Origin: Vicinamibacterales bacterium
GTDB taxonomy: Bacteria > Acidobacteriota > Vicinamibacteria > Vicinamibacterales > UBA2999
Direction of reading: 5' to 3'
DNA: 64,000 nt
NCBI GenBank assembly: GCA_035293405.1
Contig: DATDOE010000031.1
Span: 9,936 to 73,935 of the forward strand
Shown here piece after piece: positions 1,955 to 26,898 of the stretch; position 1 is the stretch's first letter; every line of letters begins with the position of its first letter. Made by a program: the position numbers and the translations under genes. Under the pieces are notes generated by a model. It did not search any database. It saw only the letters and a list, made by a program, of their open reading frames with translations, and was not told the origin of the DNA.

Positions 1955-1980
1955 TGAGCGTTGTCGCGCCACGGAGAAGA

Positions 1981-5141
<3,161 letters not shown>

Positions 5142-13000: not shown

Positions 13001-13519
13001 GCCTACTGGTACAAGAAGGAGCGAGACGGCGAGCGCGATCGCCAGGGGCGAGAGGCTCGGCGTGTTCGACTGCTCGACGACCTTGCGCCGTTTCGCGAGG
13101 ATCTCGAGACGTTCCTTCCACTCCTTGCCGGTCAACCACTCCTTTTCTGTCAGTCTCTGCGTCAGGCTTTCCAGAAACATCCGTCGCAGCGAGTCGCCTT
13201 CATGCGCCCATGCGTCGAACAGCCACACGACATAGCGAGGATCGTTCTCCAGGTGCTTTCGAAGGATTTCGACGACCGTCGACTTGCCGGCGCCCCAAGT
13301 ACCCAGAAGACCGATCGATTTGCCACCCGGAGATGTGCTGATCAACTGCGCGATGGCAGCCGCAATGCGCCCGTGCGCGCCGAAGGCGTCCTTCTCGGCG
13401 GGAGCGTCCGAAACGAGCTGAGTCGGGCAGACGTGCCCGCTAGTTTCTTGGGAGGAGCTCAAAATGGCCAAGGTGCCACGCATCGAAGTTGGGTCGGGAC
13501 TGGAAACCGCGCGGATCAT
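10067..13519 (-). CDS. KAP-family P-loop NTPase with transmembrane insertion and about 700-aa helical C-terminal extension
   Basis: Walker A GTWGAGKST (nt 13277-13303). Two hydrophobic helices (LSPLAIALAVSLLLVPVGL and VIGLMGVFAPLVVLVCYVGAVLF) are inserted before Walker B LVLVVDNLDR. This arrangement is diagnostic of KAP NTPases. The start overlaps the upstream stop (ATGA). Confidence 0.8.
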   Translation of the reverse strand: MIRAVSSPDPTSMRGTLAILSSSQETSGHVCPTQLVSDAPAEKDAFGAHGRIAAAIAQLISTSPGGKSIGLLGTWGAGKSTVVEILRKHLENDPRYVVWLFDAWAHEGDSLRRMFLESLTQRLTEKEWLTGKEWKERLEILAKRRKVVEQSNTPSLSPLAIALAVSLLLVPVGLDLWGNRLDAGLSFDPALSVDWAAVIGLMGVFAPLVVLVCYVGAVLFRGGTVADLRQRLPAALTLFVRQTDAASRTETLDTGEPTSLEFERVFCEVMQAALTPPPQNTDPDRRLVLVVDNLDRVGAEQGLSMWSTLQTFVRHRETREPWLDGLWCLLPFDGDAIRRLWPQDSLQGSHVAESFLDKTFQVRFEVPLPLLSDWKDYVMARLKEAMPEHSDGEYFRIYRLYAVRRTPATPAPTPRELKLFVNQVGSLHRQWQDEIPLPDLAYFALLQRDKVPITADSIGQLPEAGEAGLLSDKIRQHLAAMAYGVPIESAQELLLKEPIMQALEAPDPQALKTLSDSNDAFWLVLEQALWRGCEEWPHAEGGKLLHAVVALEESEITTHEPAWRVDQWFRPIEAATERVGSWAPMDARAVDGILLLSRRKPALAAPMFQAFVATRTGDPGWGSGLSIPSFLDDYARMTSGLGEWMPQPPRVVQPSGDGSAVMYGRLASELVARDPEGKLWAHFPPSDPNLLIGELAAKQLADPELVASVRVAQAGSVGARWSVFITSADVRLRSQEVHQEGHQHLLAALHALWNEPSAVEVLKGLVDEGTARQLFTTAFKDRNLDLQAAWFYTIARVDPEIRQVLYPSEASGSEPLMPAWSQIFSDAAFCDSLARTVVQMGDTSTIFQVAQRSWQAKDVMLSVLQALAALGPPARVFPPHVLVDQWSLTFPDTDPYVIARLLSEHNPRFTGLLSAEPFRLDMGSLYTGALEAEGVDTSSLVARCLDIVRGLDAPGWERALEGDASLGRLVWSLLLGGSQVALGEAAGEGLRRLVPRLAEAGVSVAGDHYRKAVFDAIEPAVRPPVLNAIVDRLTQASELGNMHRLLSMPGQSVFESDRLAGNAAAFSALAWHVLENLNDEWLAALARAATANPRLMSQLGNDDRSQIGIEIETQQTKRSSDQARKALRELGDALIAASRYSPPAEGPAMA

Positions 13520-14145
13520 ATGGACGGGACGCAGGCTCTGGCAAGCGTGAGGACAGCCGTTCCGATGACCACCAGCACGAGTGCGATGGAGATCATCCGC
13601 TGTCGCCTCCCGCGCCGCTCGTCGGCGAGGCGCAGCTCCATGATGTTCGCCCAGACGGCCTTATCGAGCTCGGGGTCGATCCGTTGCGGCCCGCCGTCGC
13701 CTGGCGGCTTTGGCGAGGCAAGCCCGCCGTCGCCTGGCGGCTTCGGCGGGGCAAGCTCCGCGTCGGTCTGCACAGGGACGACACCAACCGGCGCCACGAA
13801 TCGATATCCACGCTTCGGCACCGTCTGAATGAAAACCGGGTTCTCGGCCGGGTCGTTCAAGGCCTCGCGGACCTGTTTGATCGCGAAGTTCACACCCTGC
13901 TCGAAATCCACGAACGTGTCGCCGGTCCAGAGCGCGGCCTGAATCTGTTCACGCGTCACGAGCTTGCCCGGGTGACCGGCGAGCAGGCATAGCAGCTTGA
14001 AGGGCTGCGGCTGCAGGCGTACGTGCCGGCCGTTCTTGAGCAGCTGCCCCGCCTCCAGATCCAGTTCGAACACGCCAAAGCGGATGAGCCCAGGCCCCAC
14101 GGTGCCCGCTCCCAATCGCTGTGGCGCTGATGGCTGGTCGCTCAT
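13516..14145 (-). CDS. Membrane-anchored OmpR/CadC/ToxR-type winged-helix transcriptional regulator
   Basis: Trans_reg_C-like segment FGVFELDLEAGQLLKNGRHVRLQPQPFKLLCLLAGHPGKLVTREQI...VPKRGYRFVAPV. C-terminal TM helix ISIALVLVVIGTAVLTLA. Start choice is uncertain: ATG 14145 or the track's 14211. Confidence 0.7.
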   Translation of the reverse strand: MSDQPSAPQRLGAGTVGPGLIRFGVFELDLEAGQLLKNGRHVRLQPQPFKLLCLLAGHPGKLVTREQIQAALWTGDTFVDFEQGVNFAIKQVREALNDPAENPVFIQTVPKRGYRFVAPVGVVPVQTDAELAPPKPPGDGGLASPKPPGDGGPQRIDPELDKAVWANIMELRLADERRGRRQRMISIALVLVVIGTAVLTLARACVPSI

Positions 14146-14210
14146 TGAAAGATCAGTGCAGGCAGAGACCGGCGCTTCATGCGCAGGAGGATAGTAGAAT
14201 TCCGCACCCA

Positions 14211-15245
14211 ATGAAACGGTTCCATGTGGCGTGGCTCGTGTGGCTGTTGTGCCTTTCGACAGTCCCTGCCACTGCGCAGCGCTATGCCGCGCAGCGCGAC
14301 GGCGAGGTCGTCCACCTCACCGACACCGCAACCGGCACTCGCGTGTCGATCGCGCCATCGATCGGCAACATCGCGTTCCGGATGACCGTGAAGGGCCACG
14401 ACATCCTGCGATGGCCGCATGCCGACATGGCTGCGTTCAAGGCCAACCCGAACATGACCGGCATCCCGTTCATGGCCCCCTGGATCAACCGTCTGGACGA
14501 GCAGGCGTTCTACGCCAACGGCAAGCGGTATCCGTTCGACATGACGCTCGGCAACGTGCGTGGCGCCATCCCCATTCATGGCTTCCTCACATCGACGTCC
14601 GAGTGGCGCGTCGTGTCCGTCGATGCCGGTCGCGACTCGGCGGCCGTGACCAGCCGCCTCGAGTTCTTCCGCCAGCCGGCGTGGATGAAGCAGTGGCCGT
14701 TCGCGCACAGCATCGACATGACCTATCGCCTGTCCGAGGGCACGCTCCAGGTCGAGACGACGATCCTCAACATGAGCGCCGAGCCGATGCCGGTCTCGAT
14801 CGGGTTTCATCCGTACTTCCAGCTGACAGATTCCCCACGCGACGAGTGGACGATCTCCGTCGGCGCACGCACGCATTGGAAGCTGATGCCCAACAAGCTG
14901 CCCACCGGCGAGACCGAACCAATCGGGCAGCCGTTCACGGGCGGAGTGCCACTGCGTGACTACGACCTCGATGACGACTTCAGCGATCTGGTGCGGGATG
15001 CGCAGGGGCGCGCGACGATGACGGTGATCGGCAAGTCGCAACGCATCGACGTGCTGTTCGGACCAAACTACCGGACCGCCGTCGTCTGGGCGCCGAAGCC
15101 ACAGAACTTCATCTGCTTCGAACCGATGGCGGCCATGACCAACGCCCTCAACCTGACGCAGAAGGGTCTCTACAAGGAGCTGCAGAGCATCCCGCCAGGA
15201 GGGACATGGCGGGAGAGCTTCTGGATCCGCCCGGTCGGGTTCTAG
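14211..15245 (+). CDS. Aldose 1-epimerase (galactose mutarotase-like) family protein, secreted
   Basis: Signal peptide MKRFHVAWLVWLLCLSTVPATAQ from the ATG at 14211. Motifs HGFL...W.V and GFHPYFQL are typical of the aldose-epimerase fold. Confidence 0.75.
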   Translation: MKRFHVAWLVWLLCLSTVPATAQRYAAQRDGEVVHLTDTATGTRVSIAPSIGNIAFRMTVKGHDILRWPHADMAAFKANPNMTGIPFMAPWINRLDEQAFYANGKRYPFDMTLGNVRGAIPIHGFLTSTSEWRVVSVDAGRDSAAVTSRLEFFRQPAWMKQWPFAHSIDMTYRLSEGTLQVETTILNMSAEPMPVSIGFHPYFQLTDSPRDEWTISVGARTHWKLMPNKLPTGETEPIGQPFTGGVPLRDYDLDDDFSDLVRDAQGRATMTVIGKSQRIDVLFGPNYRTAVVWAPKPQNFICFEPMAAMTNALNLTQKGLYKELQSIPPGGTWRESFWIRPVGF

Positions 15246-15275
15246 GCGGGTCTAAGGTTGGTCTAAAGACCCGCC
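15245..15275. repeat. REP-like palindrome bridging two convergent stop codons
   Basis: TAGGCGGGTCTAAGGTTGGTCTAAAGACCCGCCTCTA. The leading TAG is the aldose-epimerase stop, and the trailing CTA is the complement of the fhcD TAG stop. Confidence 0.85.
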
Positions 15276-15276
15276 T

Positions 15277-16197
15277 CTACGAGAGCAGCGCGTGGAGGTG
15301 GAAGTGGTGCTTGCCGAGCTTGCCGCCGTAGTTCCCCGCTGAGATCTCGACGATGCCCGGCCGGCACGCGGCATCGAGCCCGACCCGCAGCGCACCCTCG
15401 ATGGCAGGACGGTCCAGGCCGTCGACGACGACCTCGAGCACCGAGTTCGCGCCTTCCGGTATCTGGCTGATCACACCGTCCCGCCCGCGCAGCGTCGGAC
15501 AGTACGCGTCGTTGGTGGACGCGATCATGTTCTTGTATTTCTTCGCACCCACTTTGCTGCCGGCACGGACGATTCCACCTGGAAAGGGCATGATGACGCC
15601 GCGCACGCGGCGCATGGCCTCAACGGCCGCTTCCGCCGCCGCGAGTGCCGCACGCTGGTCCGCGGCGAGGATCAGCAGATTGCCGCCGCCGATGGCCTTC
15701 TGAATGCCGAAGGTCTCCTGCACCAGGAACTCGCCCTCCATGACCGGAATGCGCCAGTACCGCTGTCCACCGAGAACCTTGCTCGATTGAAAGCGATCGC
15801 CGAAGTGACGCAGCTGCCCGCCGACGATCACGCGCTCGGAAGCCTCGGGTAAACCATCGAAGCACGCGGTCGTCGGGCAGGTCAGCACCGTCTGACCCAC
15901 GCGGTCGACGAGCTGCTTCTGAAGTCCCTCCGCATCAAAGCCAAACAGCAGCACGCTCACGCCGGGCCGGCGATCGGGCGTGACGTCGGGATCCAGTTCC
16001 GCTTCGATGCCCGCCTCGACCTTGCAGCCGATGACCGATGTCGCAAATCCGGTCAGCGACTGTGCCGCCGTCCGCGCCCACGCCGGTGACTGCGCCGTGA
16101 TCACGATGCGCGCGGCGCGCATCCCGAACGCCTCGGCAAAGGTGTCCACGATTCTGACGCCGTTGCGCTCCATAGCCGTCTTCGTCTCTCCGCTCAT
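15277..16197 (-). CDS. fhcD: Formylmethanofuran--tetrahydromethanopterin N-formyltransferase (Ftr/FhcD)
   Basis: The N-terminus ERNGVRIVDTFAEAFGMRAARIVITA matches the conserved Ftr N-terminus (ING..I.DTFAEAF). Length is about 300 aa. It is divergent from the fwd/fhc genes. Confidence 0.9.
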   Translation of the reverse strand: MSGETKTAMERNGVRIVDTFAEAFGMRAARIVITAQSPAWARTAAQSLTGFATSVIGCKVEAGIEAELDPDVTPDRRPGVSVLLFGFDAEGLQKQLVDRVGQTVLTCPTTACFDGLPEASERVIVGGQLRHFGDRFQSSKVLGGQRYWRIPVMEGEFLVQETFGIQKAIGGGNLLILAADQRAALAAAEAAVEAMRRVRGVIMPFPGGIVRAGSKVGAKKYKNMIASTNDAYCPTLRGRDGVISQIPEGANSVLEVVVDGLDRPAIEGALRVGLDAACRPGIVEISAGNYGGKLGKHHFHLHALLS

Positions 16198-16281
16198 GCA
16201 GGAACGTCAGTGTACATTCTGCGAAGTGGCAAGGCTCGCCGTTTTCCTGTACGATCAGACGGCCTCGTCGCAAAAGTACCA

Positions 16282-16629
16282 ATGATAGAGAGATTTATCC
16301 TCATTCCCGGGCGAACCAGCAAGCAAGGCTGCGGGGTCAGCGAAGGCAAGTTCGCGGAGGGGTATCAGCACGAGATTTCGACCTTGCAGGTGGCGCCTGG
16401 CGACATGACCCGAATGGGGCTCGCCAATGGCGATCGCGTGCGCGTCACCACCGAGAGCGGCAGGCAGATTGAGGTCGCCGTCACCGCGGCCACCGGCGAC
16501 GAGCTGCCGCCGGGACTACTCTTCATCGCCTACGGCGATCTCTCGAGCCGGCTGATGGACGGCGAGACGCACGGATCGGGAATGCCCACGAGCAAGGGAT
16601 TCGACGTCACGATGGAGAAGCTCGCGTAG
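16282..16629 (+). CDS. fwdD: Formylmethanofuran dehydrogenase subunit D-like (molybdopterin dinucleotide-binding beta-barrel domain)
   Basis: A 115-aa protein, MIERFILIPGRTSKQG...LQVAPGDMTRMGLANGDRVRVTTESGRQIEV...PPGLLFIAYG, resembling FwdD/FmdD. Its stop lies 2 nt before the fhcB start. Confidence 0.75.
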   Translation: MIERFILIPGRTSKQGCGVSEGKFAEGYQHEISTLQVAPGDMTRMGLANGDRVRVTTESGRQIEVAVTAATGDELPPGLLFIAYGDLSSRLMDGETHGSGMPTSKGFDVTMEKLA

Positions 16630-16631
16630 CA

Positions 16632-17972
16632 ATGACCACTCCTGCTGTTACCAAGACACCACCCGGTCTGGTTGATTCGTCCGTGACCGTCATCAAGGAC
16701 TCCACGTGCACCTTTTGCGGGTGCGTCTGTGACGATATCGACATCACGGTCAAGGACAACCACATCACCGACGCCAAGCGCGCCTGCGTGCTCGGCAAGG
16801 CCTGGTTCTACAACCACCATGCCGACGAGCGCCCCAGTTGCCTCATCGAAGGCCGCCCCGCATCCGTCGCCGAAGGTGTCGACCGCGCCGCACGGATACT
16901 CACCGCGGCGAAGTATCCGATCATCTACGGGCTGAGCGACACCACGTCGGAAGCCCAGCGCGTGGCCGTCGGCATCGGCGACTCGATCGGAGGGACAGTG
17001 GACACGACGACGAGTGTGTGCCATGGCCCGTCCGGTATGGCCTTCCAAGGCGTGGGCGAGGTCACGTGCACGCTCGGCGAGATTGCCAATCGCGGCGACC
17101 TGATTATTTTCTGGGGCGGGAACCCGGCCGAAAGTCATCCCCGGCACTTCACGAAGTACAGCCTGATGCCGAAAGGGATGTTCGTCCCCAACGGCCGCAA
17201 GGACCGCACCGCTGTCGGCGTTGATGTGCGCAAGACCAAGACCGCCAAGGCGATGGATCTCTTTTTTCAGATCAAGCCGCGGAGCGATTTCGAAGCCCTG
17301 TGGACGCTGCGGGCGCTGGCCAAGGGCATCGAGGTCGATGCCCAGCAGGTGAAGAACGACACCGGCATCGAGCTGGCGCGCTGGCAGGATCTGATGGATC
17401 GGATGAAGGCGGCCAAGTTCGGGGTCGTCTTGTTCGGCATGGGTCTGACGATGACCCGTGGCAAGCATCTGAACAGCGAGGCGCTGCTGTGCCTGGTGCG
17501 CGACATGAACGCCTTCACGCGGTTCGTGGCCAAGCCGATGCGCGGCCACGGCAATGTGACCGGCGCCGACAACGTCGTGACCTGGCAGACGGGTTATCCG
17601 TTCGGCGTGAACCTGTCCCGCGGCTATCCCCGCTTCAACCCCGGTGAGTACACGACATCGGACACCCTGGCACGCGGAGAAGCCGACGCCGCGCTGCTCA
17701 TCGCCTGCGATCCGATGGGGAACTTCAGCCAGCCGGCCCGTGAGCGGCTGCAGGCCATTCCATACATCGCCCTGGATCCGAAGGACACATCGACGACCCG
17801 CGCCGCAACGGTGGCGTTCACCACCGCCACCTACGGCATCAACACGCCCGGCACCGTGTACCGCATGGACGACGTCCCGATTTCTCTCCGTCCTGCGTTT
17901 CCCTCGTCCCATCCGAGCGACTTCGACGTCCTGACCGCGATCCAGCGTCGAGTGACGGAGCTCAAGAAATAG
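16632..17972 (+). CDS. fhcB: Formylmethanofuran dehydrogenase subunit B-like (FwdB/FhcB)
   Basis: N-terminal Cys cluster C26-x2-C29-x3-C33 (STCTFCGCVCDD) followed by C52. A formate-dehydrogenase-type SVCHGPS motif sits at Cys130-His131 (nt 17019-17024). Operon context with the fwdD-like gene and fhcA. Confidence 0.85.
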   Translation: MTTPAVTKTPPGLVDSSVTVIKDSTCTFCGCVCDDIDITVKDNHITDAKRACVLGKAWFYNHHADERPSCLIEGRPASVAEGVDRAARILTAAKYPIIYGLSDTTSEAQRVAVGIGDSIGGTVDTTTSVCHGPSGMAFQGVGEVTCTLGEIANRGDLIIFWGGNPAESHPRHFTKYSLMPKGMFVPNGRKDRTAVGVDVRKTKTAKAMDLFFQIKPRSDFEALWTLRALAKGIEVDAQQVKNDTGIELARWQDLMDRMKAAKFGVVLFGMGLTMTRGKHLNSEALLCLVRDMNAFTRFVAKPMRGHGNVTGADNVVTWQTGYPFGVNLSRGYPRFNPGEYTTSDTLARGEADAALLIACDPMGNFSQPARERLQAIPYIALDPKDTSTTRAATVAFTTATYGINTPGTVYRMDDVPISLRPAFPSSHPSDFDVLTAIQRRVTELKK

Positions 17973-17975
17973 CGG

Positions 17976-18050
17976 TAATGCAAGATGCGAAATGCAAAAT
18001 GCAAAACGGCGCACGACAACTTTGCATTTTGAATTTTGCATTTTGAATTA
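17976..18050. repeat. Inverted tandem-heptamer array (AATGCAA family) between fhcB and fhcA
   Basis: Left arm TAATGCAAGATGCGAAATGCAAAATGCAAAA. Right arm TTTGCATTTTGAATTTTGCATTTTGAATTA. The right arm is identical over 30 nt to 25437-25466. Confidence 0.9.
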
Positions 18051-18068
18051 CACCAAGCACTCTCATTC

Positions 18069-19757
18069 ATGAGCAGCGGCTTCTTCAAGGTTGCGGGGGG
18101 GACCGTCTACGACCCGGTTCACGGCGTGAACGGCGAGCGCCGCGATATCTGGATTCGTGACGGACGAATCGTGGACCCACCGTCAGATCCCGGCGTGCAG
18201 CCTGACAAGACACTCGACGCCTCAGGCCTGGTTGTGATGCCTGGCGGTGTCGACATGCACTGTCACATCGCCGGGCCCAAGGTGAACTCCGCCCGGAAGA
18301 TGCGACCTGAGGACAAGCGCAAGGCGGACAAGGTCATGCGCACGCCGAGCACGCGCAGCGGAACCATGGGCAGCGTCCCCAGCACATTTGCGACCGGCTA
18401 CAAGTACGCGGGCATGGGGTACACGACTGCCTTCGACGCCGCGATCCCGCCGCTGGCGGCGCGTCACGTCCATGAAGAGTTCGAAGACACGCCGTGCATC
18501 GACAAGGGGTTCTTCGTCCTCATGGGCAACAACCACTTCGTCATGCAGTCGATCCAGCGCAACGAGCCGGAGCGCCTGAAATCGTTCATGGCCTGGCTGC
18601 TGGGAGCGGCCAAGGGCTTCACGCCGAAGATCGTCAACCCCGGCGGCGTCGAGGTCTGGAAGCAGCTGCCGAGCGGCAACGTGCACGGCCTGGACGAGAA
18701 CGTGGAGCACTTCGGGGTCACCCCGCGGCAGATCATCGAGCAGATCGCCCGCGCCGTCGATGAGCTGCGGCTGCCACACTCGGTGCACCTCCACGCCAAC
18801 AACCTCGGGATGCCCGGCAACTGGCGGATCACGCTCGAGACCATGAAGACGTTCGGCGACTCGCGCGGCCATCTGTCACACATCCAGTTTCACAGCTACG
18901 GCGGCGGCGACGCCGACGAGACGACGTTCAACAGCAAAGCCGCCGAGCTCGTCGAGTACGTGAACGCCCATCCCAACCTGACCGTGGATGTCGGGCAGGT
19001 GATGTTCGGCCAGACCACCACCATGACCGCGGACGGACCGCTCGGCTACTACTTGAGCAACGCGTTCAAGAGCAAGTGGTTCTCGTCCGACACCGAGATG
19101 GAATCGGGGTGCGGCATCGCCCCCATCGAGTACAAGAACACGAGCCTGGTGCATTCCCTGCAGTGGGCCATCGGCCTGGAGTGGTATCTGCTCGCCAAGG
19201 ATCCGTGGCGGGTGGTCATGAGCACCGACCATCCCAACGGCGGGTCGTTCCTGGCCTATCCGCACATCATCCAGCTGTTGATGGATCGGACCTATCGCGC
19301 GAACATCCTCAAGCAGGTGCACCCGGCGGTGCTGGAGCGTTCGACGCTCGGCGATCTCACCAGGGAGTACAGCCTGTACGAGATCTGCATCATCACGCGC
19401 AGCGGCCCGGCGAGGATTCTGGGGCTCGCCAACAAGGGCCATCTGGGCCCGGGGGCTGACGCCGACATCACCATCTACACGCCGAACGACGACAAGACGA
19501 AGATGTTCGAGATGCCGCGATCGGTCATCAAGAGCGGCGTCGTCATCGTCGACCAGGGCGAGATTCGCGAACCGATCACCGGCAAACTGCTGTATGTGGC
19601 GCCTGAGTACGACGCCGGCATCGAGACCGACATCGCCGACTGGTTCGAGCAGTACTACTCAATCCGATTCCGCAACTATCCGGTTCCGCTCGACTACCTG
19701 CACGATCCCGAGCAAATCGTCTGTGACGGCAACTACCCTGGAGCGCAGTTGCCTTGA
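18069..19757 (+). CDS. fhcA: Formylmethanofuran dehydrogenase subunit A-like amidohydrolase (FwdA/FhcA)
   Basis: Amidohydrolase metal motif GGVDMHCHIAGPK. Length about 560 aa. The ATG at 18069 lies just downstream of the heptamer array. Confidence 0.85.
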   Translation: MSSGFFKVAGGTVYDPVHGVNGERRDIWIRDGRIVDPPSDPGVQPDKTLDASGLVVMPGGVDMHCHIAGPKVNSARKMRPEDKRKADKVMRTPSTRSGTMGSVPSTFATGYKYAGMGYTTAFDAAIPPLAARHVHEEFEDTPCIDKGFFVLMGNNHFVMQSIQRNEPERLKSFMAWLLGAAKGFTPKIVNPGGVEVWKQLPSGNVHGLDENVEHFGVTPRQIIEQIARAVDELRLPHSVHLHANNLGMPGNWRITLETMKTFGDSRGHLSHIQFHSYGGGDADETTFNSKAAELVEYVNAHPNLTVDVGQVMFGQTTTMTADGPLGYYLSNAFKSKWFSSDTEMESGCGIAPIEYKNTSLVHSLQWAIGLEWYLLAKDPWRVVMSTDHPNGGSFLAYPHIIQLLMDRTYRANILKQVHPAVLERSTLGDLTREYSLYEICIITRSGPARILGLANKGHLGPGADADITIYTPNDDKTKMFEMPRSVIKSGVVIVDQGEIREPITGKLLYVAPEYDAGIETDIADWFEQYYSIRFRNYPVPLDYLHDPEQIVCDGNYPGAQLP

Positions 19758-19909
19758 CGCTCTTCGGGTCCTGTCGGCGGGTTTCCCCACCGGGCCTCGG
19801 CGCACAGAGAACATTGGGTGAAGCGCCTGCGGGCCGGCGGGGAGGCCCCTCCCGCCGCCACCCACCCGTAAGAACTACGTCAACGCAACTGCCCTTCTGA
19901 GAGGTAGTG

Positions 19910-20119
19910 TGGAGGTCACGTGTGTTGAGGATCGCGAATCCCTGTGGAGATGACCGACAAAGGTCGCCTGACCGCGCGAGAAGGCTGTGGGGATCAGCGA
20001 GGTTGAGCGCTCACAATTCAACTTGCGCGACCCGAGCGTCATGCGGGCCGACGATGCCATCGCAGCGCGGTCCGGTCATCGGAACCGGGATTCGCGATCC
20101 TCAATACACGTGAGCTCCA
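19910..20119. repeat. 33-nt long-range inverted repeat enclosing about 144 nt between fhcA and fhcC
   Basis: 19910-19942 TGGAGGTCACGTGTGTTGAGGATCGCGAATCCC pairs with 20087-20119 (one mismatch, one G-U). The 3' arm ends 13 nt before the fhcC ATG. Confidence 0.8.
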
Positions 20120-20132
20120 GGATTAGGACGCC

Positions 20133-20945
20133 ATGCTCGTACTCCGCTACACCGCTGACACATCGATCCCCGTCGAAGTCGAAGGCCTCACGCCATCGGC
20201 CGTTCGTGAGATGCCGCTATCAGAGATCCAACGGTTCGAGATCTTCCACGGGAACCGGAAGGTCCCGCTGGGAGACTTCTTCGACGTCAGCGGTGATCCT
20301 TCCGATGCCCGTTTCGAGTTCGAGGGCAACCTGGCGGGCGTCCATTGGATCGGCGCGCAGATGTCCGAAGGAGAGATTCACATCCGTGGCAATGCCGGCC
20401 GTCACGTCGGCAGCGAGATGACGGGCGGCGTCATCCACGTCCACGGGAATGCGAGTGACTGGGTCGGTGGCGAGATGCACGGCGGTTTGATCCACGTGCA
20501 CGGCAATGCCGGCCATCTGATCGGAAGCGCCTACAGGGGAAGCAAGGCCGGCATGACGGCCGGCACGATTCTCATCGACGGTTCGGCGGGCAATGAGGTC
20601 GGCCTCACGCTCCGTCGCGGTCTGGTGGCCATCGGCGGGGCCTGTGGCGACTTCGTCGGCGCCAACATGATCGCGGGGACCGTGCTCGTCTTCGGCCAGT
20701 GCGGCAATCGGCCCGCGGCTGGCATGCGCCGTGGGACGGTCGCTCTTCTTGGCAGCAACCCGCCCGCCCTCCTGGTGTCGTTCAAGAAGAGCAGCGTCTA
20801 CGAACCGCTGTTCCTGCGGCTCATCTTCAGCCACCTCCAGTCGCTGGGATTTGCCGTCCCCAACGAATGCTGGAGCGCGAGCTATGGCCTGTACCACGGC
20901 GACCGCGTGACCGTCGGTCGCGGGGAGATACTCGTTCGCGAATAG
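20133..20945 (+). CDS. fhcC: Formylmethanofuran dehydrogenase subunit C-like (FwdC/FhcC)
   Basis: Repeated G-rich beta-helix motifs GNAGRHVGSEMTGGVIHVHGNASDWVGGEMHGGLIHVHGNAGHLIG, typical of FwdC and the GltB C-terminal domain. Confidence 0.85.
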   Translation: MLVLRYTADTSIPVEVEGLTPSAVREMPLSEIQRFEIFHGNRKVPLGDFFDVSGDPSDARFEFEGNLAGVHWIGAQMSEGEIHIRGNAGRHVGSEMTGGVIHVHGNASDWVGGEMHGGLIHVHGNAGHLIGSAYRGSKAGMTAGTILIDGSAGNEVGLTLRRGLVAIGGACGDFVGANMIAGTVLVFGQCGNRPAAGMRRGTVALLGSNPPALLVSFKKSSVYEPLFLRLIFSHLQSLGFAVPNECWSASYGLYHGDRVTVGRGEILVRE

Positions 20946-20984
20946 CTGGTAGCTGGTAGCTGGTAGCTGGTAGCCGATAGCAAG
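20943..20984. repeat. Direct tandem-heptamer array (TAGCTGG x4, TAGCCGA, TAGCAAG)
   Basis: It starts with the TAG stop codon of fhcC. No inverted arm is present. Confidence 0.85.
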
Positions 20985-21000
20985 CGTGTCGCCGGTGGTC

Positions 21001-21062
21001 GTAGCGCGCAGGCTTCAGCCTGCGCGTGAACCAGCACGCGGGGGCTGAAGCCCCCGCGCTAC
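21001..21062. repeat. GTAG...CTAC-flanked double hairpin (REP/BIME-like)
   Basis: GTAGCGCGCAGGCTTCAGCCTGCGCG ... CGCGGGGGCTGAAGCCCCCGCGCTAC, lying between convergent fhcC and the SWIB gene. Confidence 0.75.
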
Positions 21063-21076
21063 GAGCCGGCAAGGAC

Positions 21077-21358: not shown

Positions 21359-21420
21359 CTGATCTCCTTTGAAAAGTTGTTTCCGATGCGGATACCGGCG
21401 CGTGCTCTCGCGACGTCCTG

Positions 21421-23032: not shown

Positions 23033-24238
23033 CTACGCTCGCCGCGCAAGCGCCTCGTAGACCGCGTCGGCACGCCGCACCAGCGCGGCGTGGCAGGCCG
23101 CCGCATCGATCCCTTCCGCGAACACGGTACATACGGGCTCACCGGCCGAGATGCGCGTGCCGGGGAACGGCACGTCCCTTACCGTCGCATCGGCCAGCCA
23201 GGGCCGTGTATCGCCAGCGATCACCTCGGCACGGGCGAACACAACCGCCTTGCCGATCGCCGATCCCGGACCAGGGGCGGCGGCCAGGTCGAACGTGGGC
23301 AGGGCCCCGGTGCGGCACGCGGTCGCGTGGGCAGCGAACAGCGACATCCCGCAGGCGCGCTCCACCAGCTCCATCGACGCCGACCAGCGCGGGTTGACCT
23401 CCAGCACATACGGAACACCGTCCCGGACGATGAAGTCGATGCCGTTGAGACCGACGAGACCGAACTCGCCGGCCACGTGGCGGGTCAGCTCGCTCACCGC
23501 GTTCGTCACGGCATCATTCATCAGCGCATCGCCGGCTGTGGCGAGCACATTTCCGCAATAGCGATATCCGGAGGTCCCGAATGCCGCCTCCCCGATGAAC
23601 TGCCTCGAGATGCCGAGTGGCGTCGCGCGGCCACCGGCGGCAACGAAGACGATCGACGCCGGCGTGCCATCGATGACTTCCTGCGCGTAGCAGCCCTTAG
23701 GCACGCGTTCGCCTGGCAACCAGCGGCGAACGCCATGGCCGCCGCCGGATTTGAAGGGCTTGATCAGCCAATCGTTCGGACCGTTCGGACCGTTCGGACC
23801 GTTCGGATCGTTCGGATCGTTCGGGTCGCTTGCCGCGCCGAAGCCGTGAGGCGAAGGCGGGTTCGAAACGTTCGGAACTGCGAAGCCGCGTGAGCGTAGC
23901 GCGGCCGCGACGAGGAATGGATCGCGGACGCGGCGAAGCACGTCGGGCGGATTTCCCCACAGCTCGCGTCCGGCGGCCAACTGGGCGACGGCGCCCGGAT
24001 GATTCTCGAGGCTCGACAGGTAGGCGACCGCGTCGCACTCCACGCTTCGCGAGGCACGCGCGGCCGCGCGTGCGGTGAAGCGCAATCCGAAGTCTCGCGG
24101 GAGCGAGAGGCCGCGCACCGACGGATGCTGATCGAGATCGCCGAACGCATCGATCGCCGTGACGTCGAACCCGGCGTTCGCCGCCGATTCGGCCGCGGCC
24201 CTCGTGGAGATGCCGGCGAGCAGGACGTGCGCCGCCAC
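23033..24238 (-). CDS. ATP-grasp domain protein (H4MPT/methanofuran-cluster associated)
   Basis: Overall ATP-grasp pattern (LIKPFKSGGGHGV, GLNGIDFIV, EVNPRWS). Sits in the fae-mtdB operon. Carries an in-frame 9-nt repeat insertion (DPNDPNDPNGPNGPNGPND). Confidence 0.7.
   Translation of the reverse strand: MAAHVLLAGISTRAAAESAANAGFDVTAIDAFGDLDQHPSVRGLSLPRDFGLRFTARAAARASRSVECDAVAYLSSLENHPGAVAQLAAGRELWGNPPDVLRRVRDPFLVAAALRSRGFAVPNVSNPPSPHGFGAASDPNDPNDPNGPNGPNGPNDWLIKPFKSGGGHGVRRWLPGERVPKGCYAQEVIDGTPASIVFVAAGGRATPLGISRQFIGEAAFGTSGYRYCGNVLATAGDALMNDAVTNAVSELTRHVAGEFGLVGLNGIDFIVRDGVPYVLEVNPRWSASMELVERACGMSLFAAHATACRTGALPTFDLAAAPGPGSAIGKAVVFARAEVIAGDTRPWLADATVRDVPFPGTRISAGEPVCTVFAEGIDAAACHAALVRRADAVYEALARRA
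23771..23824. repeat. Six tandem 9-nt units (AYCGTTCGG) inside the ATP-grasp CDS
   Basis: ATCGTTCGG ACCGTTCGG x3 ATCGTTCGG x2. Translated on the minus strand as (PND/PNG)n. The same unit occurs intergenically at 49245-49289. Confidence 0.9.
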
Positions 24239-24245
24239 TAGGAGC

Positions 24246-25334
24246 CTAGTCGATCCCGAGGCGTGCGCGCGCCTGTGCCGGCGTGATCACGAACAGGTGG
24301 TCGAGTACCGTGCCTCGAGCTCCTCGCATGTCGAGCGTCTCGACGAGCGACGCCGATCGGCCGCCGGCGAGGCCGTCGGCGATGAGCGCCGCACCCTGTG
24401 CCGCCTGACTCGACACCGCCGCGAACCCGCCGAGCGCGTGCATCGTCGCCCCGCTCACGACCTGGGCACGTCGATGCGCCAGTGCGTCGCGCACGCGCGC
24501 AAGACCGGCTGCGCGGCCCGACAGGATGATCTCATGGGGCGTCGGCACCGATACCGTCAATGCCGCCACCGCTTTGACCGCGCTCTCCACGTAGGCGTCC
24601 CACGCGATCGCGGCCTGCGACGTCTCGGATGCGGCCAGGGCGTCAACCGGCGCACCCGGCGCGCCTGCTACCGCGTCGACGCCGCCGCGAAACACCATGC
24701 TCTTCGTGACGGTGCCGGCGAGCAACGCGACTTCCCCGTCGAGCGCGCCGGCGGCACGCATGCCGATCGGACCCGACGATCCACCCAGCCCGTCAACGAT
24801 CGTGCCGGCGTCAACGGCGATGGCGGCGGTGAAGGCCCCACCGAGCTCGAGCAGGATGAACGAGACGTCCCGCTCCTGACATCCGCGCCGCCCGGCCTGC
24901 TCCCGGATGGCCAGCGCGCACGCGCACACCTTGTCGGCCGTCCCCATGTCCACGCGGTTCACCTTGCGGTGCGCCGGCACGGAAGCCAAGTGGATCACAC
25001 CTGGCGTCAACATGACTGGCATCGACACGCGCGCAAGCCGTCGCGCGAGCGCACGCAACCCGCCGATGCCCCCCGTCTCGCCTTCGGCGGCGAGGTAGGC
25101 GAGCCGCAGATCGGTCTCGGTGAGATCGCGTGCGGCGGTGAGCGGCAGACCGTAGCCTGACGGTCCGACCACCAGATCGATCGGCGCCAGACTCTCGAGG
25201 AGATCGGGGATCACCGAGGGCGACGCGAGCGCCTCGGACGTCGGCAGCGAGCGATCAAGAAACACCCGGCCATCGTCCAGTCCGCACAGATCGACGCTGA
25301 GGGTGCCTGGATCGATGCCAATGACTCTGGGCAT
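24246..25334 (-). CDS. DUF1464-like ASKHA-fold (sugar/acetate-kinase-like) protein
   Basis: The N-terminal MPRVIGIDPGT phosphate-1 motif is typical of the ASKHA fold. Gene position matches the uncharacterised H4MPT-pathway-associated genes seen in methylotroph clusters. The family label is from memory. Confidence 0.55.
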   Translation of the reverse strand: MPRVIGIDPGTLSVDLCGLDDGRVFLDRSLPTSEALASPSVIPDLLESLAPIDLVVGPSGYGLPLTAARDLTETDLRLAYLAAEGETGGIGGLRALARRLARVSMPVMLTPGVIHLASVPAHRKVNRVDMGTADKVCACALAIREQAGRRGCQERDVSFILLELGGAFTAAIAVDAGTIVDGLGGSSGPIGMRAAGALDGEVALLAGTVTKSMVFRGGVDAVAGAPGAPVDALAASETSQAAIAWDAYVESAVKAVAALTVSVPTPHEIILSGRAAGLARVRDALAHRRAQVVSGATMHALGGFAAVSSQAAQGAALIADGLAGGRSASLVETLDMRGARGTVLDHLFVITPAQARARLGID

Positions 25335-25348
25335 TGGGACTTCGGTCG

Positions 25349-25466
25349 TAATGCAAGATTCAAAATGCAAAATGCAAACAGGATGCGAACGCCGCTGCAG
25401 CTAGCCGGTTGCGCCGCCTTGTTCGGCCGCTGAATTTTTGCATTTTGAATTTTGCATTTTGAATTA
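25349..25466. repeat. Inverted tandem-heptamer array (AATGCAA/ATTCAAA family) between mtdB and the DUF1464-like gene
   Basis: Left arm TAATGCAAGATTCAAAATGCAAAATGCAAA (25349-25378). Right arm 25437-25466 ends with the complement of the mtdB TAA stop. Confidence 0.9.
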
Positions 25467-26336
25467 CGACGAGCGAGCACCAGCGAGCTCGCGAGCGATC
25501 TCCGCGATCGTTTCGGCATCGAGCACGTGATCGTTCTTCTCGAACAGACGGGCGATGCAGGCCTTGTGGATCTTCATCTTCAGGCTGCCGATGCCGAGTG
25601 CGCCGAACGTCGTCACGCCGCCGCGATCGACGGCGTTGTCGGTGACCTCGATGCCGTCCACGCCGAGCGGCGGAACGGCGTTGACGTCGGCCGCCACCTT
25701 CAGACCTGGGCGGCCCGTCCAGGCGTCGCGCGGAACGAGGCAGACGCCGCCAGCGCCTGCGCTCAGCAACACTTCCGCACCGTCGAGCGCCAAGGCGGCA
25801 CCCGACGCGTCGGCCATGGTCACCTCGCGAACCGTGACGCCGAATCGCTGTTGGATTCGCTCGGCGAGACTGCCGTCCACCGGCCGGCGTGTCGTGACGG
25901 TGACATCGGCACCCGCTTTCGCGAGGAGACCGGCCGCGCGCATCCCGACCGGCCCAGAGCCGGCGACGATCACGACGCGACGGCCCTCGATGGTGCCGGC
26001 TGCCTGTTGAATCCTGGCCACCGCCGCGACGGCGGTGGTGTTCGAGCCGTTCGAGTCGAGCATCACGGACACGCGCAGCGGACCGAAAAAGGCCTTCTTC
26101 ACCTTTGCGAGCAGGCGCTCGCCGATCGCCATGTCCGTTCCGCCGATGAAGATCGCGGTGTTGTGAAGGTCCCTGGGCCCACGCGTGAAGATCGCGCCGT
26201 GCACGAGGTCGCGGACGGCGTCTTCAGTGACACCGCCGTAGCTCATGACCTCGTCGGCGCCGCCGTCGTAGGCCACGACGCGGTCGAACGCGCTGGGATG
26301 CTGGGAGCTATCGAGTTGAAGGAGAAGCTTTCGCAC
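25464..26336 (-). CDS. mtdB: NAD(P)-dependent methylene-tetrahydromethanopterin dehydrogenase (MtdA/MtdB family)
   Basis: KLLLQLDSSQHPSAFDRVVAYDGGADEVMSYGGVT...TAIFIGGTDMAIGERLL.KVKK.FFGPLRVSVMLDSNGSNTTA closely parallels Methylobacterium MtdA/B. I propose the GTG at 26336 as start, since the track ORF upstream runs through a palindromic element. That gives about 290 aa. Confidence 0.85.
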   Translation of the reverse strand: MRKLLLQLDSSQHPSAFDRVVAYDGGADEVMSYGGVTEDAVRDLVHGAIFTRGPRDLHNTAIFIGGTDMAIGERLLAKVKKAFFGPLRVSVMLDSNGSNTTAVAAVARIQQAAGTIEGRRVVIVAGSGPVGMRAAGLLAKAGADVTVTTRRPVDGSLAERIQQRFGVTVREVTMADASGAALALDGAEVLLSAGAGGVCLVPRDAWTGRPGLKVAADVNAVPPLGVDGIEVTDNAVDRGGVTTFGALGIGSLKMKIHKACIARLFEKNDHVLDAETIAEIARELAGARSS

Positions 26337-26356
26337 GGCGTGACCGGGGAATCGAC

Positions 26357-26384
26357 GTAGGGGCGACGCATGCGTCGCCCCTAC
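26357..26384. repeat. Perfect 28-nt palindrome GTAGGGGCGACGCATGCGTCGCCCCTAC (REP-like) between fae and mtdB
   Basis: An identical copy lies at 34723-34750. Confidence 0.9.
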
Positions 26385-26394
26385 ACGTCCATCA

Positions 26395-26898
26395 TTACTT
26401 GGGGCTGAACGGGTGCTTCTGCGTCTTCGAGCCGGCAATCACCTCGTTGACCGACGGCTTCTTGCCGAGCGCCCGGGCGATCGATTCTTTGGTCGCCGTG
26501 TAGTTGTAGTCGTAGATCTTCTGGTCGTCGCTCGCGTCCCAGTGGATGAAGACGCCCACGAGGATGCAGAGATCGTCGGCCTTGTCGCGCGGGATGACGC
26601 CGCTCTCGACGGAATCGACCACGGCGCGGGCCACCGCCGCCTGCGCGGGTCCGAACATCTGGACGGCCTGCTTCGCGCCCTTGATCGTGACCTTGTTGAA
26701 GAGCAGGGTGTCGGGCTTGGCCGGCAGGTTCGGCGCGACCACTGCGAGCAAGGTCGTGAAGCCGTCCTTGTTGTTCGCAAGCGCGTTGCAAAATGCGGAA
26801 CCGGCAGGCCCCGTCTTGGAGCCAATGATCAGGTCGATGTGCGCTACCTCGTTGCCATCGCCGACCAGCGACTCACCGAGAAAGAAGTCTGCTGCCAT
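26395..26898 (-). CDS. fae: Formaldehyde-activating enzyme
   Basis: [19 protein letters not shown]...LLAV.APNLP.KP.TL.FNKVTI...[10 protein letters not shown]...[11 protein letters not shown] nearly matches the M. extorquens Fae consensus. Length 167 aa. Confidence 0.92.

What the first reader, a model, noticed from the sequence alone, without database searches (positions are those of the whole stretch)
16282..17972. The FhcB-like subunit keeps Fe-S and Cys-His catalytic motifs and is preceded by an FwdD-like subunit: possibly a redox-active formyl-MFR dehydrogenase rather than a hydrolytic Fhc
The subunit B homologue has an N-terminal C-x2-C-x3-C...C pattern (C26, C29, C33, C52), as in the 4Fe-4S site of Mo/W-bisPGD enzymes. 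It also has SVCHGPS at Cys130-His131 (nt 17019-17024). This matches the (Sec/Cys)-His-G-P-(S/T) active-site motif of formate dehydrogenases and archaeal FwdB/FmdB as I remember them.
Immediately upstream, 2 nt before the fhcB start, is a 115-aa FwdD-like cap-domain protein. The characterised Fhc complex of Methylobacterium has four subunits (FhcABCD, with D being Ftr). As I recall, it was reported to lack Mo/W and to release formate hydrolytically. The D-plus-B architecture here is the archaeal one, so this bacterium may oxidise formyl-MFR to CO2 or run the reaction reductively.
Basis: partly seen in the sequence, partly recalled or inferred. Interest (0 to 1): 0.62.

Follow-up and report, generated by a model that had tools for sequence, protein, structure and literature searches.

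The report
Bacterial formylmethanofuran dehydrogenase operon, archaeal type
A soil acidobacterium carries a four-gene enzyme set (fwdD-B-A-C, next to ftr) that keeps every sequence feature of the archaeal metal-dependent enzyme that oxidises formyl-methanofuran to CO2, so it is very probably redox-active rather than a formate-releasing hydrolase, but such operons have already been noted in other bacteria.

Summary
The subunit at 16632-17972 is an orthologue of archaeal FwdB/FmdB, not an FhcB. Its PDB matches are archaeal FwdB at E 1e-103 to 4e-110, against 2e-15 for Methylorubrum FhcB. It keeps the four [4Fe-4S] cysteines and the catalytic Cys130-His131, Arg304 and His306. These residues are invariant in 75 acidobacterial and planctomycete relatives. 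The 115-aa gene 2 nt upstream is a true FwdD cap subunit.

Many relatives carry mobA, moeA, a moaD-like gene and a tungsten-type aldehyde:ferredoxin oxidoreductase inside or beside the fwd cluster. The 64-kb window has none of these, and no FwdF/G-type electron-transfer subunit either.

The Fe-S motif alone is not diagnostic. Most family representatives keep it but have lost Cys-His-Arg. The FwdC tail and the adjacent ftr resemble Fhc, which suggests a hybrid complex.

The best reading is a W/Mo formyl-methanofuran dehydrogenase that works oxidatively in H4MPT-linked formaldehyde oxidation, with an unknown electron acceptor. Prior reports describe fmdDBAC operons with Cys or Sec in Planctomycetes, NC10 and Actinobacteria. 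This is therefore a new member of a known kind. No biochemical study of such a bacterial complex turned up in the papers I read.

The parts
15277..16197 (-). ftr (formylmethanofuran:H4MPT formyltransferase), divergently transcribed from fwdD with an 84-nt spacer
   Evidence: Pfam FTR 5e-58 and FTR_C 4e-61. NCBIfam NF002554 436 bits and TIGR03119 one_C_fhcD 427 bits, both above their cut-offs. PDB matches: FhcD 6s6y_D 6e-96 and archaeal Ftr 1ftr 1e-94.
16282..16629 (+). fwdD: 115-aa cap ('fourth domain') subunit of the Mo/W-bisPGD site. An alternative GTG start at 16210 is unlikely.
   Evidence: Pfam Molydop_binding 4.2e-10. The only PDB sequence hits are archaeal FwdD chains. NCBIfam FwdD model scores 60 bits, below its 175-bit cut-off. 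A homologue lies within 1.5 kb upstream of fwdB in 55 of 72 relatives with enough upstream DNA.
16632..17972 (+). fwdB/fmdB: 446-aa catalytic subunit of the Mo/W-bisPGD family
   Evidence: PDB phmmer: 9sfi_Q 4e-110, 8rja_B 3e-107, 5t5i_B 1e-103, against FhcB 6s6y_B 2e-15. NCBIfam TIGR03129 477 bits, cut-off 328. BLASTP identity to archaeal FwdB is 40-43%.
16707..16787 (+). [4Fe-4S] ligand codons C26, C29, C33 and C52 of FwdB
   Evidence: Codons verified. Invariant in 78 of 78 aligned sequences.
17013..17033 (+). Active-site motif S-V-C130-H131-G-P-S, equivalent to Cys118-His119 of M. wolfeii FwdB. The selenocysteine of 9sfi_Q aligns with C130.
   Evidence: All 80 related loci have Cys here.
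17541..17549 (+). R304-G305-H306, equivalent to Arg288 and His290 of M. wolfeii FwdB (catalytic Arg; His typical of FMD where FDH has Glu)
   Evidence: Alignment. Arg invariant in 78 of 78. Residue roles are taken from PMC6926001 and PMC11656701.
17975..18051 (+). AT-rich palindromic element (about a 30-bp stem of GCAAAAT-like heptads) in the fwdB-fwdA spacer. A second copy lies at 25350-25466.
   Evidence: RNA fold -33.9 kcal/mol, z = -4.3. The pattern is found 13 times against 0.36 expected, all but one partial match (26788-26800) in these two places.
18036..19757 (+). fwdA: amidohydrolase subunit (formyl-MFR hydrolysis or condensation). The probable true start is ATG 18069 (Met12). Metal-ligand motifs are kept: H75, H77, K198, H253, H282, D398, numbered from 18036.
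   Evidence: Pfam Amidohydro_3 3e-54. PDB: archaeal FwdA 3e-146 to 3e-130, against FhcA 6s6y_A 2e-108. TIGR03121 745 bits. Motif positions. Ligand set from PMC6926001.
20133..20945 (+). fwdC: beta-helix scaffold subunit. Its C-terminal tail (about residues 220-268) resembles FhcC, not archaeal FwdC.
   Evidence: Pfam GXGXG 2e-14. TIGR03122 matches full length, while the archaeal FwdC model NF042910 matches only to residue 226. phmmer aligns FhcC 6s6y_C over 4-268, but archaeal FwdC chains stop at 219-228.
23033..26898 (-). H4MPT/methanofuran-linked context genes: ATP-grasp with weak MfnD likeness (23033-24238), DUF1464 (24246-25370), MtdB-like methylene-H4MPT dehydrogenase (25464-26438), formaldehyde-activating enzyme Fae (26395-26898)
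   Evidence: Pfam ATP-grasp_3; DUF1464 7e-85, Mpt_N 6e-34 and Fae 5e-70. The NCBIfam MfnD hit is weak, 9e-7.

Best explanation
The genes fwdD-fwdB-fwdA-fwdC, with the divergent ftr, encode a bacterial formylmethanofuran dehydrogenase of the archaeal Fwd/Fmd type. It works as the last step of H4MPT-linked formaldehyde oxidation.

Inferred mechanism, by homology with the M. wolfeii structure: Ftr moves the formyl group from formyl-H4MPT to methanofuran. FwdA hydrolyses formyl-MFR at its binuclear metal site. The formate passes internally to the FwdB/FwdD module. There a Mo- or W-bis-pyranopterin guanine dinucleotide, ligated by Cys130 and assisted by His131, Arg304 and His306, oxidises it to CO2. 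The two electrons leave through the N-terminal [4Fe-4S] cluster (C26, C29, C33, C52) to an external acceptor. No FwdF/G subunit is encoded, so the acceptor is probably a soluble ferredoxin.

Shown here: orthology, conservation of all ligand and catalytic residues, presence of the cap subunit, and genomic linkage to pterin-cofactor maturation genes in relatives.

Inferred only: cofactor occupancy, the metal (W is hinted at by the tungsten-type AOR neighbour in relatives), the direction, the formate tunnel, and the acceptor.
For: 1. FwdB is 40-43% identical to crystallised W/Mo FwdB/FmdB. PDB E-values are 1e-103 to 4e-110, against 2e-15 for FhcB. Foldseek on a moderate model ranks archaeal FwdB first and FhcB next.
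2. The four Fe-S Cys, Cys130, His131 and Arg304 are invariant in 78 of 78 sequences. All 80 loci have Cys at the active site. Of 117 near relatives in which the motif was found, 116 read Cys-His.
3. The window keeps 63 of 75 positions that are conserved in at least 12 of 13 sequences of the archaeal-type clade. Degenerate homologues keep a mean of 61%.
4. A FwdD cap is present and conserved.
5. FwdA is closer to archaeal FwdA than to FhcA and keeps its ligand motifs.
6. Of the 80 related loci, 22 carry mobA, typically between fwdA and fwdC. Thirty-four carry moeA (some fused to a PBP-like domain), 26 a moaD-like gene and 32 an AOR-family gene, usually just upstream of fwdD. These include the acidobacterial loci L003 and L005.
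7. The context holds Fae, an MtdB-like gene and Ftr.
8. Short metatranscriptome contigs 85-99% alike cover parts of fwdB, including the active-site codons.
9. Characterised FhcB lacks all these features (PMC6926001). A selenocysteine form of planctomycete FmdB is reported (PMC4807772), which makes a purely structural role unlikely for this clade.
Against: There is no biochemical evidence of any kind. The 64-kb window holds no Moco biosynthesis gene, no tungstate or molybdate transporter, no ferredoxin and no FwdF/G/E homologue. In the window's own sub-lineage (window, L001, L002) the mobA, moeA and AOR neighbours are missing. Most family representatives keep the Fe-S cysteines without the catalytic triad, so part of the signature is retained without catalysis elsewhere in the family. 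The FwdC tail and the ftr linkage are Fhc-like. The acidobacterial relative L003 has an NAD-type formate dehydrogenase next door, which could deal with released formate. The AlphaFold model has low confidence in the cofactor-binding loops. The RNA evidence is thin and could include DNA carry-over.
Confidence: 0.75

Rival explanations
1. It is a hydrolytic, Fhc-like complex. FwdB/FwdD are scaffolds whose motifs are vestigial or bind only an Fe-S cluster. Formate is released and oxidised or assimilated elsewhere.
For: Most FwdB-family representatives keep the four Cys while lacking Cys-His-Arg, so Fe-S retention does not imply catalysis. No electron-transfer subunit and no Moco genes lie in the window. 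The FwdC tail is FhcC-like and ftr is adjacent, as in fhc clusters. Relative L003 has an FdsA/FdsB-like formate dehydrogenase beside the cluster.
Against: The full triad plus His306 is invariant across about 80 loci and 116 of 117 near relatives, which span two phyla at 74-91% identity. FwdD is retained, whereas Fhc has lost it. mobA, needed only for guanine-dinucleotide pterins, sits inside the cluster in relatives. The protein is far closer to catalytic archaeal FwdB than to FhcB.
Confidence: 0.1
2. The complex runs reductively, as in methanogens. It fixes CO2 onto methanofuran to feed C1 units into H4MPT-bound intermediates for assimilation.
For: Fwd/Fmd enzymes are reversible and the core is the same FwdABCD (PMC11656701).
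Against: The reaction needs donors near -500 mV. No bifurcating or polyferredoxin module is encoded here or in the relatives' loci. The neighbours are Fae and an MtdB-like dehydrogenase, typical of formaldehyde oxidation. No mer, CODH/ACS or other reductive C1 genes lie in the window.
Confidence: 0.07
3. The cluster is a recently transferred, poorly used or decaying island in this acidobacterium. Its sequence features reflect function in the donor (Planctomycetota) rather than here.
For: FwdB is 82% identical to Pirellulales proteins, which is unusually high between phyla. The window's sub-lineage lacks the mobA, moeA and AOR neighbours, and a 376-nt non-coding gap lies where relatives carry mobA.
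Against: All five genes are intact, with host-like GC3 of 0.76-0.87 and uniform GC. Relatives at 85-91% identity in several Acidobacteriota MAGs keep the same genes. Metatranscriptome contigs up to 99% alike exist.
Confidence: 0.06

Closest known systems
Archaeal tungsten/molybdenum formylmethanofuran dehydrogenase core FwdABCD/FmdABCD (M. wolfeii 5T5I; Ca. Ethanoperedens 8RJA; the fwdDBAC operon type of Methanosarcina)
   Same: Same four subunits and the same gene order, D-B-A-C. FwdB has the N-terminal [4Fe-4S] cysteines, Cys-His, Arg and His. FwdD cap is present. FwdA keeps its binuclear-site motifs. FwdC is a beta-helix.
   Different: The host is bacterial and probably aerobic. No FwdF polyferredoxin, FwdG or FwdE is encoded. 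ftr is encoded beside the operon. The FwdC C-terminal tail is unlike archaeal FwdC. The expected direction is oxidative, in a formaldehyde-oxidation context with Fae and MtdB.
Formyltransferase/hydrolase complex FhcABCD of Methylorubrum extorquens (6S6Y)
   Same: Bacterial, H4MPT/methanofuran-linked, and ftr (FhcD) is linked to the cluster. The FwdC tail aligns with the FhcC tail that docks FhcD. The Ftr protein's top PDB match is FhcD.
   Different: FhcB lacks the Fe-S domain, has Ser in place of the catalytic Cys, lacks His and Arg, has loops that clash with the pterin site, and has no FwdD partner (PMC6926001). The window's B subunit has all these features. It matches FhcB only at 2e-15 and 22% identity.
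Previously reported bacterial fmdD-fmdB-fmdA-fmdC / fwdDBA-ftr-fwdC operons (Rhodopirellula 'P2', a Lake Washington fosmid, Ca. Methylomirabilis oxyfera; Hakuba Actinobacteria)
   Same: Same operon type, with Cys or Sec at the active site and the Fe-S domain, and without fwdE/F/G (PMC4807772; PMC7325909). The window's nearest non-acidobacterial relatives are planctomycete genes of exactly this type.
   Different: The host phylum is Acidobacteriota (Vicinamibacterales-like). ftr is divergent upstream instead of inside the operon. The mobA, moeA and AOR neighbours seen in many planctomycete and some acidobacterial loci are absent. The papers I read report no biochemistry for any of these.

Membership tests
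Fwd/Fmd-type formylmethanofuran dehydrogenase (archaeal type) | FwdB N-terminal [4Fe-4S] binding cysteines (C-x2-C-x3-C...C) | tested here: met
   C26, C29, C33 and C52 align with the archaeal ligands and are invariant in 78 of 78 sequences.
Fwd/Fmd-type formylmethanofuran dehydrogenase (archaeal type) | Metal-ligating Cys/Sec followed by His, plus the catalytic Arg (Cys118, His119, Arg288 in M. wolfeii) and the FMD-typical His290 | tested here: met
   C130, H131, R304 and H306 are present. The Sec of 9sfi_Q aligns with C130.
Fwd/Fmd-type formylmethanofuran dehydrogenase (archaeal type) | Separate FwdD cap subunit (fourth domain of Mo/W-bisPGD enzymes) | tested here: met
   115-aa ORF 2 nt upstream. 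Pfam PF01568 4e-10. PDB hits are FwdD chains only.
Fwd/Fmd-type formylmethanofuran dehydrogenase (archaeal type) | FwdA amidohydrolase with binuclear metal ligands (His-x-His, carboxylated Lys, two His, Asp) and a FwdC beta-helix | tested here: met
   Motifs at H75/H77, K198, H253, H282 and D398. TIGR03121 and TIGR03122 score above their cut-offs.
Fwd/Fmd-type formylmethanofuran dehydrogenase (archaeal type) | Dedicated electron-transfer subunits (FwdG, FwdF polyferredoxin) | tested here: not met
   No ferredoxin-like ORF in the window, and none conserved in the 80 loci. This is not a core-defining feature: fwdABCD/fwdDBAC clusters are also cited in methanogens (PMC7325909), though whether F/G are encoded elsewhere there was not checked.
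Fwd/Fmd-type formylmethanofuran dehydrogenase (archaeal type) | Bound W- or Mo-bis-pyranopterin guanine dinucleotide, and formyl-MFR:acceptor oxidoreductase activity | not testable with these tools
   Only indirect evidence: mobA, moeA and moaD-like genes lie in or next to the homologous clusters of relatives. None lies in this window.
Fhc formyltransferase/hydrolase complex (M. extorquens type) | B subunit degenerate: no Fe-S domain, no catalytic Cys/His/Arg, no FwdD | tested here: not met
   The window has all three features. The FhcB features are from PMC6926001. The match to FhcB is weak, 2e-15.
Fhc formyltransferase/hydrolase complex (M. extorquens type) | Formyltransferase (FhcD) as part of the complex, docked on the FhcC C-terminal helix-loop-helix | tested here: inconclusive
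   ftr is adjacent. The FwdC tail aligns with FhcC to residue 268, whereas archaeal FwdC chains stop near 224. The single-sequence AlphaFold model is too poor to decide (pLDDT 53; helix 224-237 predicted at low confidence).
Fhc formyltransferase/hydrolase complex (M. extorquens type) | Hydrolytic release of free formate | not testable with these tools
   Needs an enzyme assay.

The most novel reading that the evidence does not exclude
The complex is a living intermediate between archaeal Fwd and proteobacterial Fhc. It would be a catalytically competent W/Mo formyl-MFR dehydrogenase that has already acquired Fhc-style docking of the formyltransferase through an FhcC-like FwdC tail. Formyl-H4MPT would then be oxidised to CO2 inside one particle, without free formate, in an aerobic soil bacterium. 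Electrons near -500 mV would go to a so far unidentified acceptor, with no FwdF/G module. The surrounding family would record many independent losses of the Mo/W site with the Fe-S cluster retained.
Probability: 0.3. Interest if true: 0.6.

Novelty: new member of a known kind. Interest (0 to 1): 0.4.

Why it matters
Accounts of bacterial C1 metabolism commonly treat the methanofuran step as the hydrolytic Fhc reaction that yields formate, the branch point of methylotrophy. [quoted passage not shown] If the widespread planctomycete and acidobacterial version is a true dehydrogenase, several things follow. These abundant soil and aquatic bacteria would oxidise formaldehyde-derived carbon straight to CO2 and bypass formate. 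They would also generate very low-potential electrons and would need tungsten or molybdenum for it. This would change how H4MPT genes are read in metagenomes: 'fwdB' hits need their Cys-His-Arg state checked. It would also offer a bacterial and possibly oxygen-tolerant FMD for CO2-capture enzymology, and a test of the proposed Fwd-to-Fhc evolutionary path. The interest is tempered because the operon type and its Cys/Sec site have already been noticed in print.

Tried and rejected
- Rfam scan of the whole window at gathering thresholds found nothing. A permissive scan of 15000-21500 gave only chance-level hits and no Moco riboswitch.
- The promoter and terminator scan of 15000-21500 was at background level.
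- tblastn of MoeA, MobA, MoaD-like and AOR proteins from relatives against the window found nothing.
- A search for ferredoxin-type CxxCxxCxxxC[PAGS] ORFs in the window and the 80 loci found none in the window and none conserved. The only hits are unrelated or locus-specific, for example an FdsA-like FDH in L003.
The single-sequence model is poor (pLDDT 53), so the helix-loop-helix versus beta-hairpin question stays open.
- The AlphaFold model of FwdB (33-sequence alignment) reaches only pLDDT 64, with the cofactor loops disordered. Foldseek TM is about 0.44 to archaeal FwdB, so it gives rank order only.
- I could not obtain the FhcB sequence for a residue-by-residue alignment, because it ranks sixth and alignments print for five at most. 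I relied on PMC6926001 and on E-values and identities.
- Adam et al. 2019 (Nature Microbiology) is not held.
- I first thought the PQQ dehydrogenase at 32531-34726 might be a XoxF-type methanol dehydrogenase. NCBIfam places it nearer the glucose/quinate type, below every cut-off, so I make no methanol claim.
- The NJ tree of representatives is rough and has no support values. I use it only as a hint.
Full report
**What is there**

The window is GC-rich (about 64%). Its nearest relatives are Vicinamibacterales and other Acidobacteriota MAGs, at 85-90% identity on the B subunit. Next come a very large set of Planctomycetota at 74-82%. The DNA itself is found almost entire (0.99 of sampled words) in one soil metagenome run.

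Around the finding lies an H4MPT/methanofuran island:
- ftr, 15277-16197 (-)
- fwdD, 16282-16629 (+)
- fwdB, 16632-17972 (+)
- fwdA, 18036/18069-19757 (+)
- fwdC, 20133-20945 (+)

Further downstream on the minus strand are an ATP-grasp gene, a DUF1464 gene, an MtdB-like dehydrogenase and Fae.

**Check of the observation**

Every item is correct to the base.
- The 115-aa ORF ends with TAG at 16627-16629, and the next ATG is at 16632.
- C26, C29, C33 and C52 give C-x2-C-x3-C...C.
- S-V-C130-H131-G-P-S lies at 17013-17033, with Cys-His at 17019-17024.
- The small ORF carries the molybdopterin-dinucleotide-binding (cap) domain. In the PDB it matches only archaeal FwdD chains.

**What the B subunit is**

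It is not an FhcB that happens to keep motifs. It is an orthologue of archaeal FwdB/FmdB.
- phmmer against PDB sequences gives 4e-110, 3e-107 and 1e-103 for three crystallised archaeal FwdB/FmdB, aligned end to end. Methylorubrum FhcB scores 2e-15 and matches mainly the C-terminal half.
- BLASTP identity to the archaeal proteins is 40-43%.
- NCBI's equivalog model for subunit B scores 477 bits, against a cut-off of 328.
- Cys130 aligns with Cys118 of M. wolfeii and with the selenocysteine of 9sfi_Q. His131 aligns with His119, Arg304 with Arg288 and His306 with His290 (residue roles from PMC6926001, and PMC11656701).
- Hemmann et al. state that FhcB lacks the Fe-S domain, has Ser62 in place of Cys118, lacks His119 and Arg288, has three loops that clash with the pterin, and has no FwdD.

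**Conservation**

- I aligned 75 full-length ORFs from the 80 related loci with three archaeal structure sequences. The four Fe-S cysteines, Cys130, His131 and Arg304 are invariant in 78 of 78.
- All 80 loci have Cys at the active site.
- Of 117 near relatives in which the motif was found, among the 120 from the protein database, 116 read Cys-His and one reads Asp-His.
- The window retains 63 of 75 positions that are conserved in at least 12 of 13 members of the archaeal-type clade. Most of the differences are conservative.
- FwdA is closer to archaeal FwdA (3e-146) than to FhcA (2e-108) and keeps the metal-ligand motifs.

**A caution that sharpens the argument**

An exhaustive HMMER search gave 723 cluster representatives at E up to 1e-30. 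Among the best 150, the four Fe-S cysteines are almost universal. The Cys-His-Arg triad, however, is complete in only about 14 full-length representatives. The rest carry Gly, Ala, Ser and other residues, and often lack His and Arg.

The Fe-S motif therefore does not discriminate. The triad together with FwdD does.

About ten representatives are fragments that begin just after the active-site position. They may be selenoproteins truncated at TGA by gene callers; this is an inference.

A rough neighbour-joining tree places the window's clade among degenerate forms, apart from the archaeal-type clade. If this holds, it implies repeated loss of the metal site. The tree has no support values.

**Comparative genomics**

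- A fwdD homologue (64-91% identical) lies within 1.5 kb upstream of fwdB in 55 of 72 loci with enough upstream sequence. These include MAGs labelled Pirellula staleyi and Rhodopirellula.
- This contradicts the statement that fwdD is absent from Planctomycetes (PMC5020050). It agrees with Kim et al. 2016, who reported an fmdD-fmdB-fmdA-fmdC operon with both Sec and Cys forms in a Rhodopirellula (PMC4807772).
- NCBI's FwdD model scores only 60 bits against a cut-off of 175. This may explain why the small gene goes unnamed.
- Of the 80 loci, 32 have an aldehyde:ferredoxin-oxidoreductase-family (tungsten-type) gene, usually directly upstream of fwdD.
- 26 have a small MoaD-like gene, and 34 have moeA, some fused to a PBP-like domain.
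- 22 have a MobA-like gene, typically between fwdA and fwdC on the opposite strand.
- From general knowledge of Moco biosynthesis, MobA is needed for guanine-dinucleotide pterins (FwdB, FDH) but not for AOR-type cofactors. Its position inside the fwd cluster is therefore the most telling linkage.
- The acidobacterial relatives L003 and L005 have this full arrangement. L003 also has an FdsA/NuoEF-like formate dehydrogenase next door.
- The window and its two closest relatives (L001, L002) lack these neighbours, and tblastn finds none of them anywhere in the 64 kb.
- A 376-nt gap without a credible ORF lies where relatives carry mobA.

**What is missing**

No FwdF, FwdG or FwdE and no ferredoxin is encoded in the window or conserved in the loci. 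The electron acceptor is therefore unknown. I infer a soluble ferredoxin from the exposed-cluster logic and from the ferredoxin-dependent AOR neighbour in relatives. This is not shown. The Actinobacteria paper reports fwdABCD clusters without fwdE/F/G and cites fwdABCD/fwdDBAC clusters in methanogens (PMC7325909).

**Fhc-like traits**

- The FwdC C-terminal 50 residues align with the FhcC tail to residue 268. This includes the Y-x-G-D...G-x-G-E motif, which is conserved in relatives.
- Four archaeal FwdC chains stop aligning at 219-228, and the archaeal NCBIfam FwdC model matches only to residue 226.
- In Fhc this tail docks the formyltransferase.
- ftr is adjacent here and lies inside the operon in many planctomycete loci.
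- The complex may therefore combine a working dehydrogenase with Fhc-style Ftr docking. My attempts to test this by structure prediction were inconclusive.

**Expression**

Short contigs from four soil and sediment metatranscriptomes, 85-99% alike, lie on fwdB, including the active-site codons, and on ftr and fwdC, at low depth. This suggests that close relatives transcribe the genes. The evidence is thin, and DNA carry-over cannot be excluded.

**Verdict**

The most likely function is oxidation of formyl-methanofuran to CO2 by a W- or Mo-dependent FwdABCD-type enzyme, at the end of an Fae/Mtd/Mch/Ftr formaldehyde-oxidation route. No mch gene was found in the window. The acceptor is unidentified.

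The finding is a new member (Acidobacteriota) of a kind already noted in Planctomycetes, NC10 and Actinobacteria. The wider 'FwdB has bacterial representatives' picture is also in print (PMC10100899). What remains open and testable is the biochemistry. Nothing in the papers I read reports a bacterial Fwd/Fmd being purified or assayed.

Noticed in passing
window 17975-18051 and 25350-25466: Two copies of an AT-rich palindromic element built of GCAAAAT-like heptads. The arms are nearly identical and the loops differ (about 15 nt against about 55 nt). Both lie in intergenic spacers inside the C1 gene clusters, fwdB|fwdA and DUF1464|mtdB-like. The RNA hairpin folds at -33.9 kcal/mol with z = -4.3. 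The pattern occurs 13 times against 0.36 expected, and all but one partial match (26788-26800) fall in these two places. The exact heptad pattern has no match in the 80 related loci. It could be a REP-like element or an intra-operon regulatory hairpin.
   Followed up: partly
protein representatives P0121-P0270: Most FwdB-family representatives keep the four [4Fe-4S] cysteines but lack the Cys-His-Arg triad. They have Gly, Ala, Ser and other residues at the Cys position. This is a large, apparently unstudied class of 'Fe-S only' FwdB/FhcB-like proteins. About ten representatives are fragments that start just after the active-site position and may be mis-called selenoproteins.
   Followed up: partly
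L003 5395-15066; L005; L008; L020; L034; L044; L060 and others: A conserved supercluster in Planctomycetota and some Acidobacteriota: moaD-like, AOR-family tungsten-type oxidoreductase, fwdD-B-A, mobA or ftr, fwdC, and one or two moeA genes (one fused to a PBP-like domain). It suggests a shared tungsten-cofactor module for aldehyde or formaldehyde and formyl-MFR oxidation.
   Followed up: partly
L011 3492-4736(-), L014 457-1707(-), L053 12041-13291, L063 15479-16747, L073 15169-16467: A second FwdB paralogue, 45-49% identical to the window protein, also has the Fe-S cysteines, Cys-His and the Arg. It lies near moeA in the same loci. These may be isoenzymes, like Fwd and Fmd in methanogens.
   Followed up: partly
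P0121, P0122, P0129, P0133, P0160, P0177: These representatives are 570-606 aa long, and the FwdB match starts at residue 130-165. They look like FwdD-FwdB fusions. I did not check the N-terminal extensions.
   Followed up: no
window 16632-17972 compared with L006 and L007: FwdB is 82% identical between this acidobacterium and Pirellulales/Planctomycetaceae MAGs. FwdD is 77% identical and FwdA 72-75%, but Ftr only about 54%. This suggests fairly recent transfer of fwdDBA between the phyla, with ftr having a separate history.
   Followed up: no
window 19758-20132: A 376-nt stretch between fwdA and fwdC has no credible ORF. It lies at the position where relatives L003, L005 and L007 carry mobA on the opposite strand. 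In the closest relatives, L001 and L002, fwdA and fwdC abut. One metatranscriptome contig lies on 19916-20094.
   Followed up: partly
P0065 (near relative, 79% identical): One near relative has Asp instead of the active-site Cys (TTSVDHGPS). This could be a sequencing variant or an Asp-ligated form.
   Followed up: no
window 21077-21358 (-): A 93-aa SWIB/MDM2-domain gene just downstream of fwdC has very high contig depth (about 19-158) in all four metatranscriptomes examined, from many sequence variants.
   Followed up: no
window 32531-34726 (+), 41520-43142 (-), 131-8388, 34758-41399: A PQQ-dependent dehydrogenase lies here. It is nearer the glucose/quinate type than the methanol/ethanol type by NCBIfam, and scores below all cut-offs. 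An aldehyde dehydrogenase and five large TonB-dependent-receptor-like genes with carboxypeptidase-regulatory domains surround the C1 island. The source of formaldehyde for the pathway is not evident.
   Followed up: partly
window 10067-13519 (-): A 1150-aa KAP-family P-loop NTPase gene lies beside a winged-helix (Trans_reg_C) regulator gene at 13516-14211, upstream of the C1 island.
   Followed up: no
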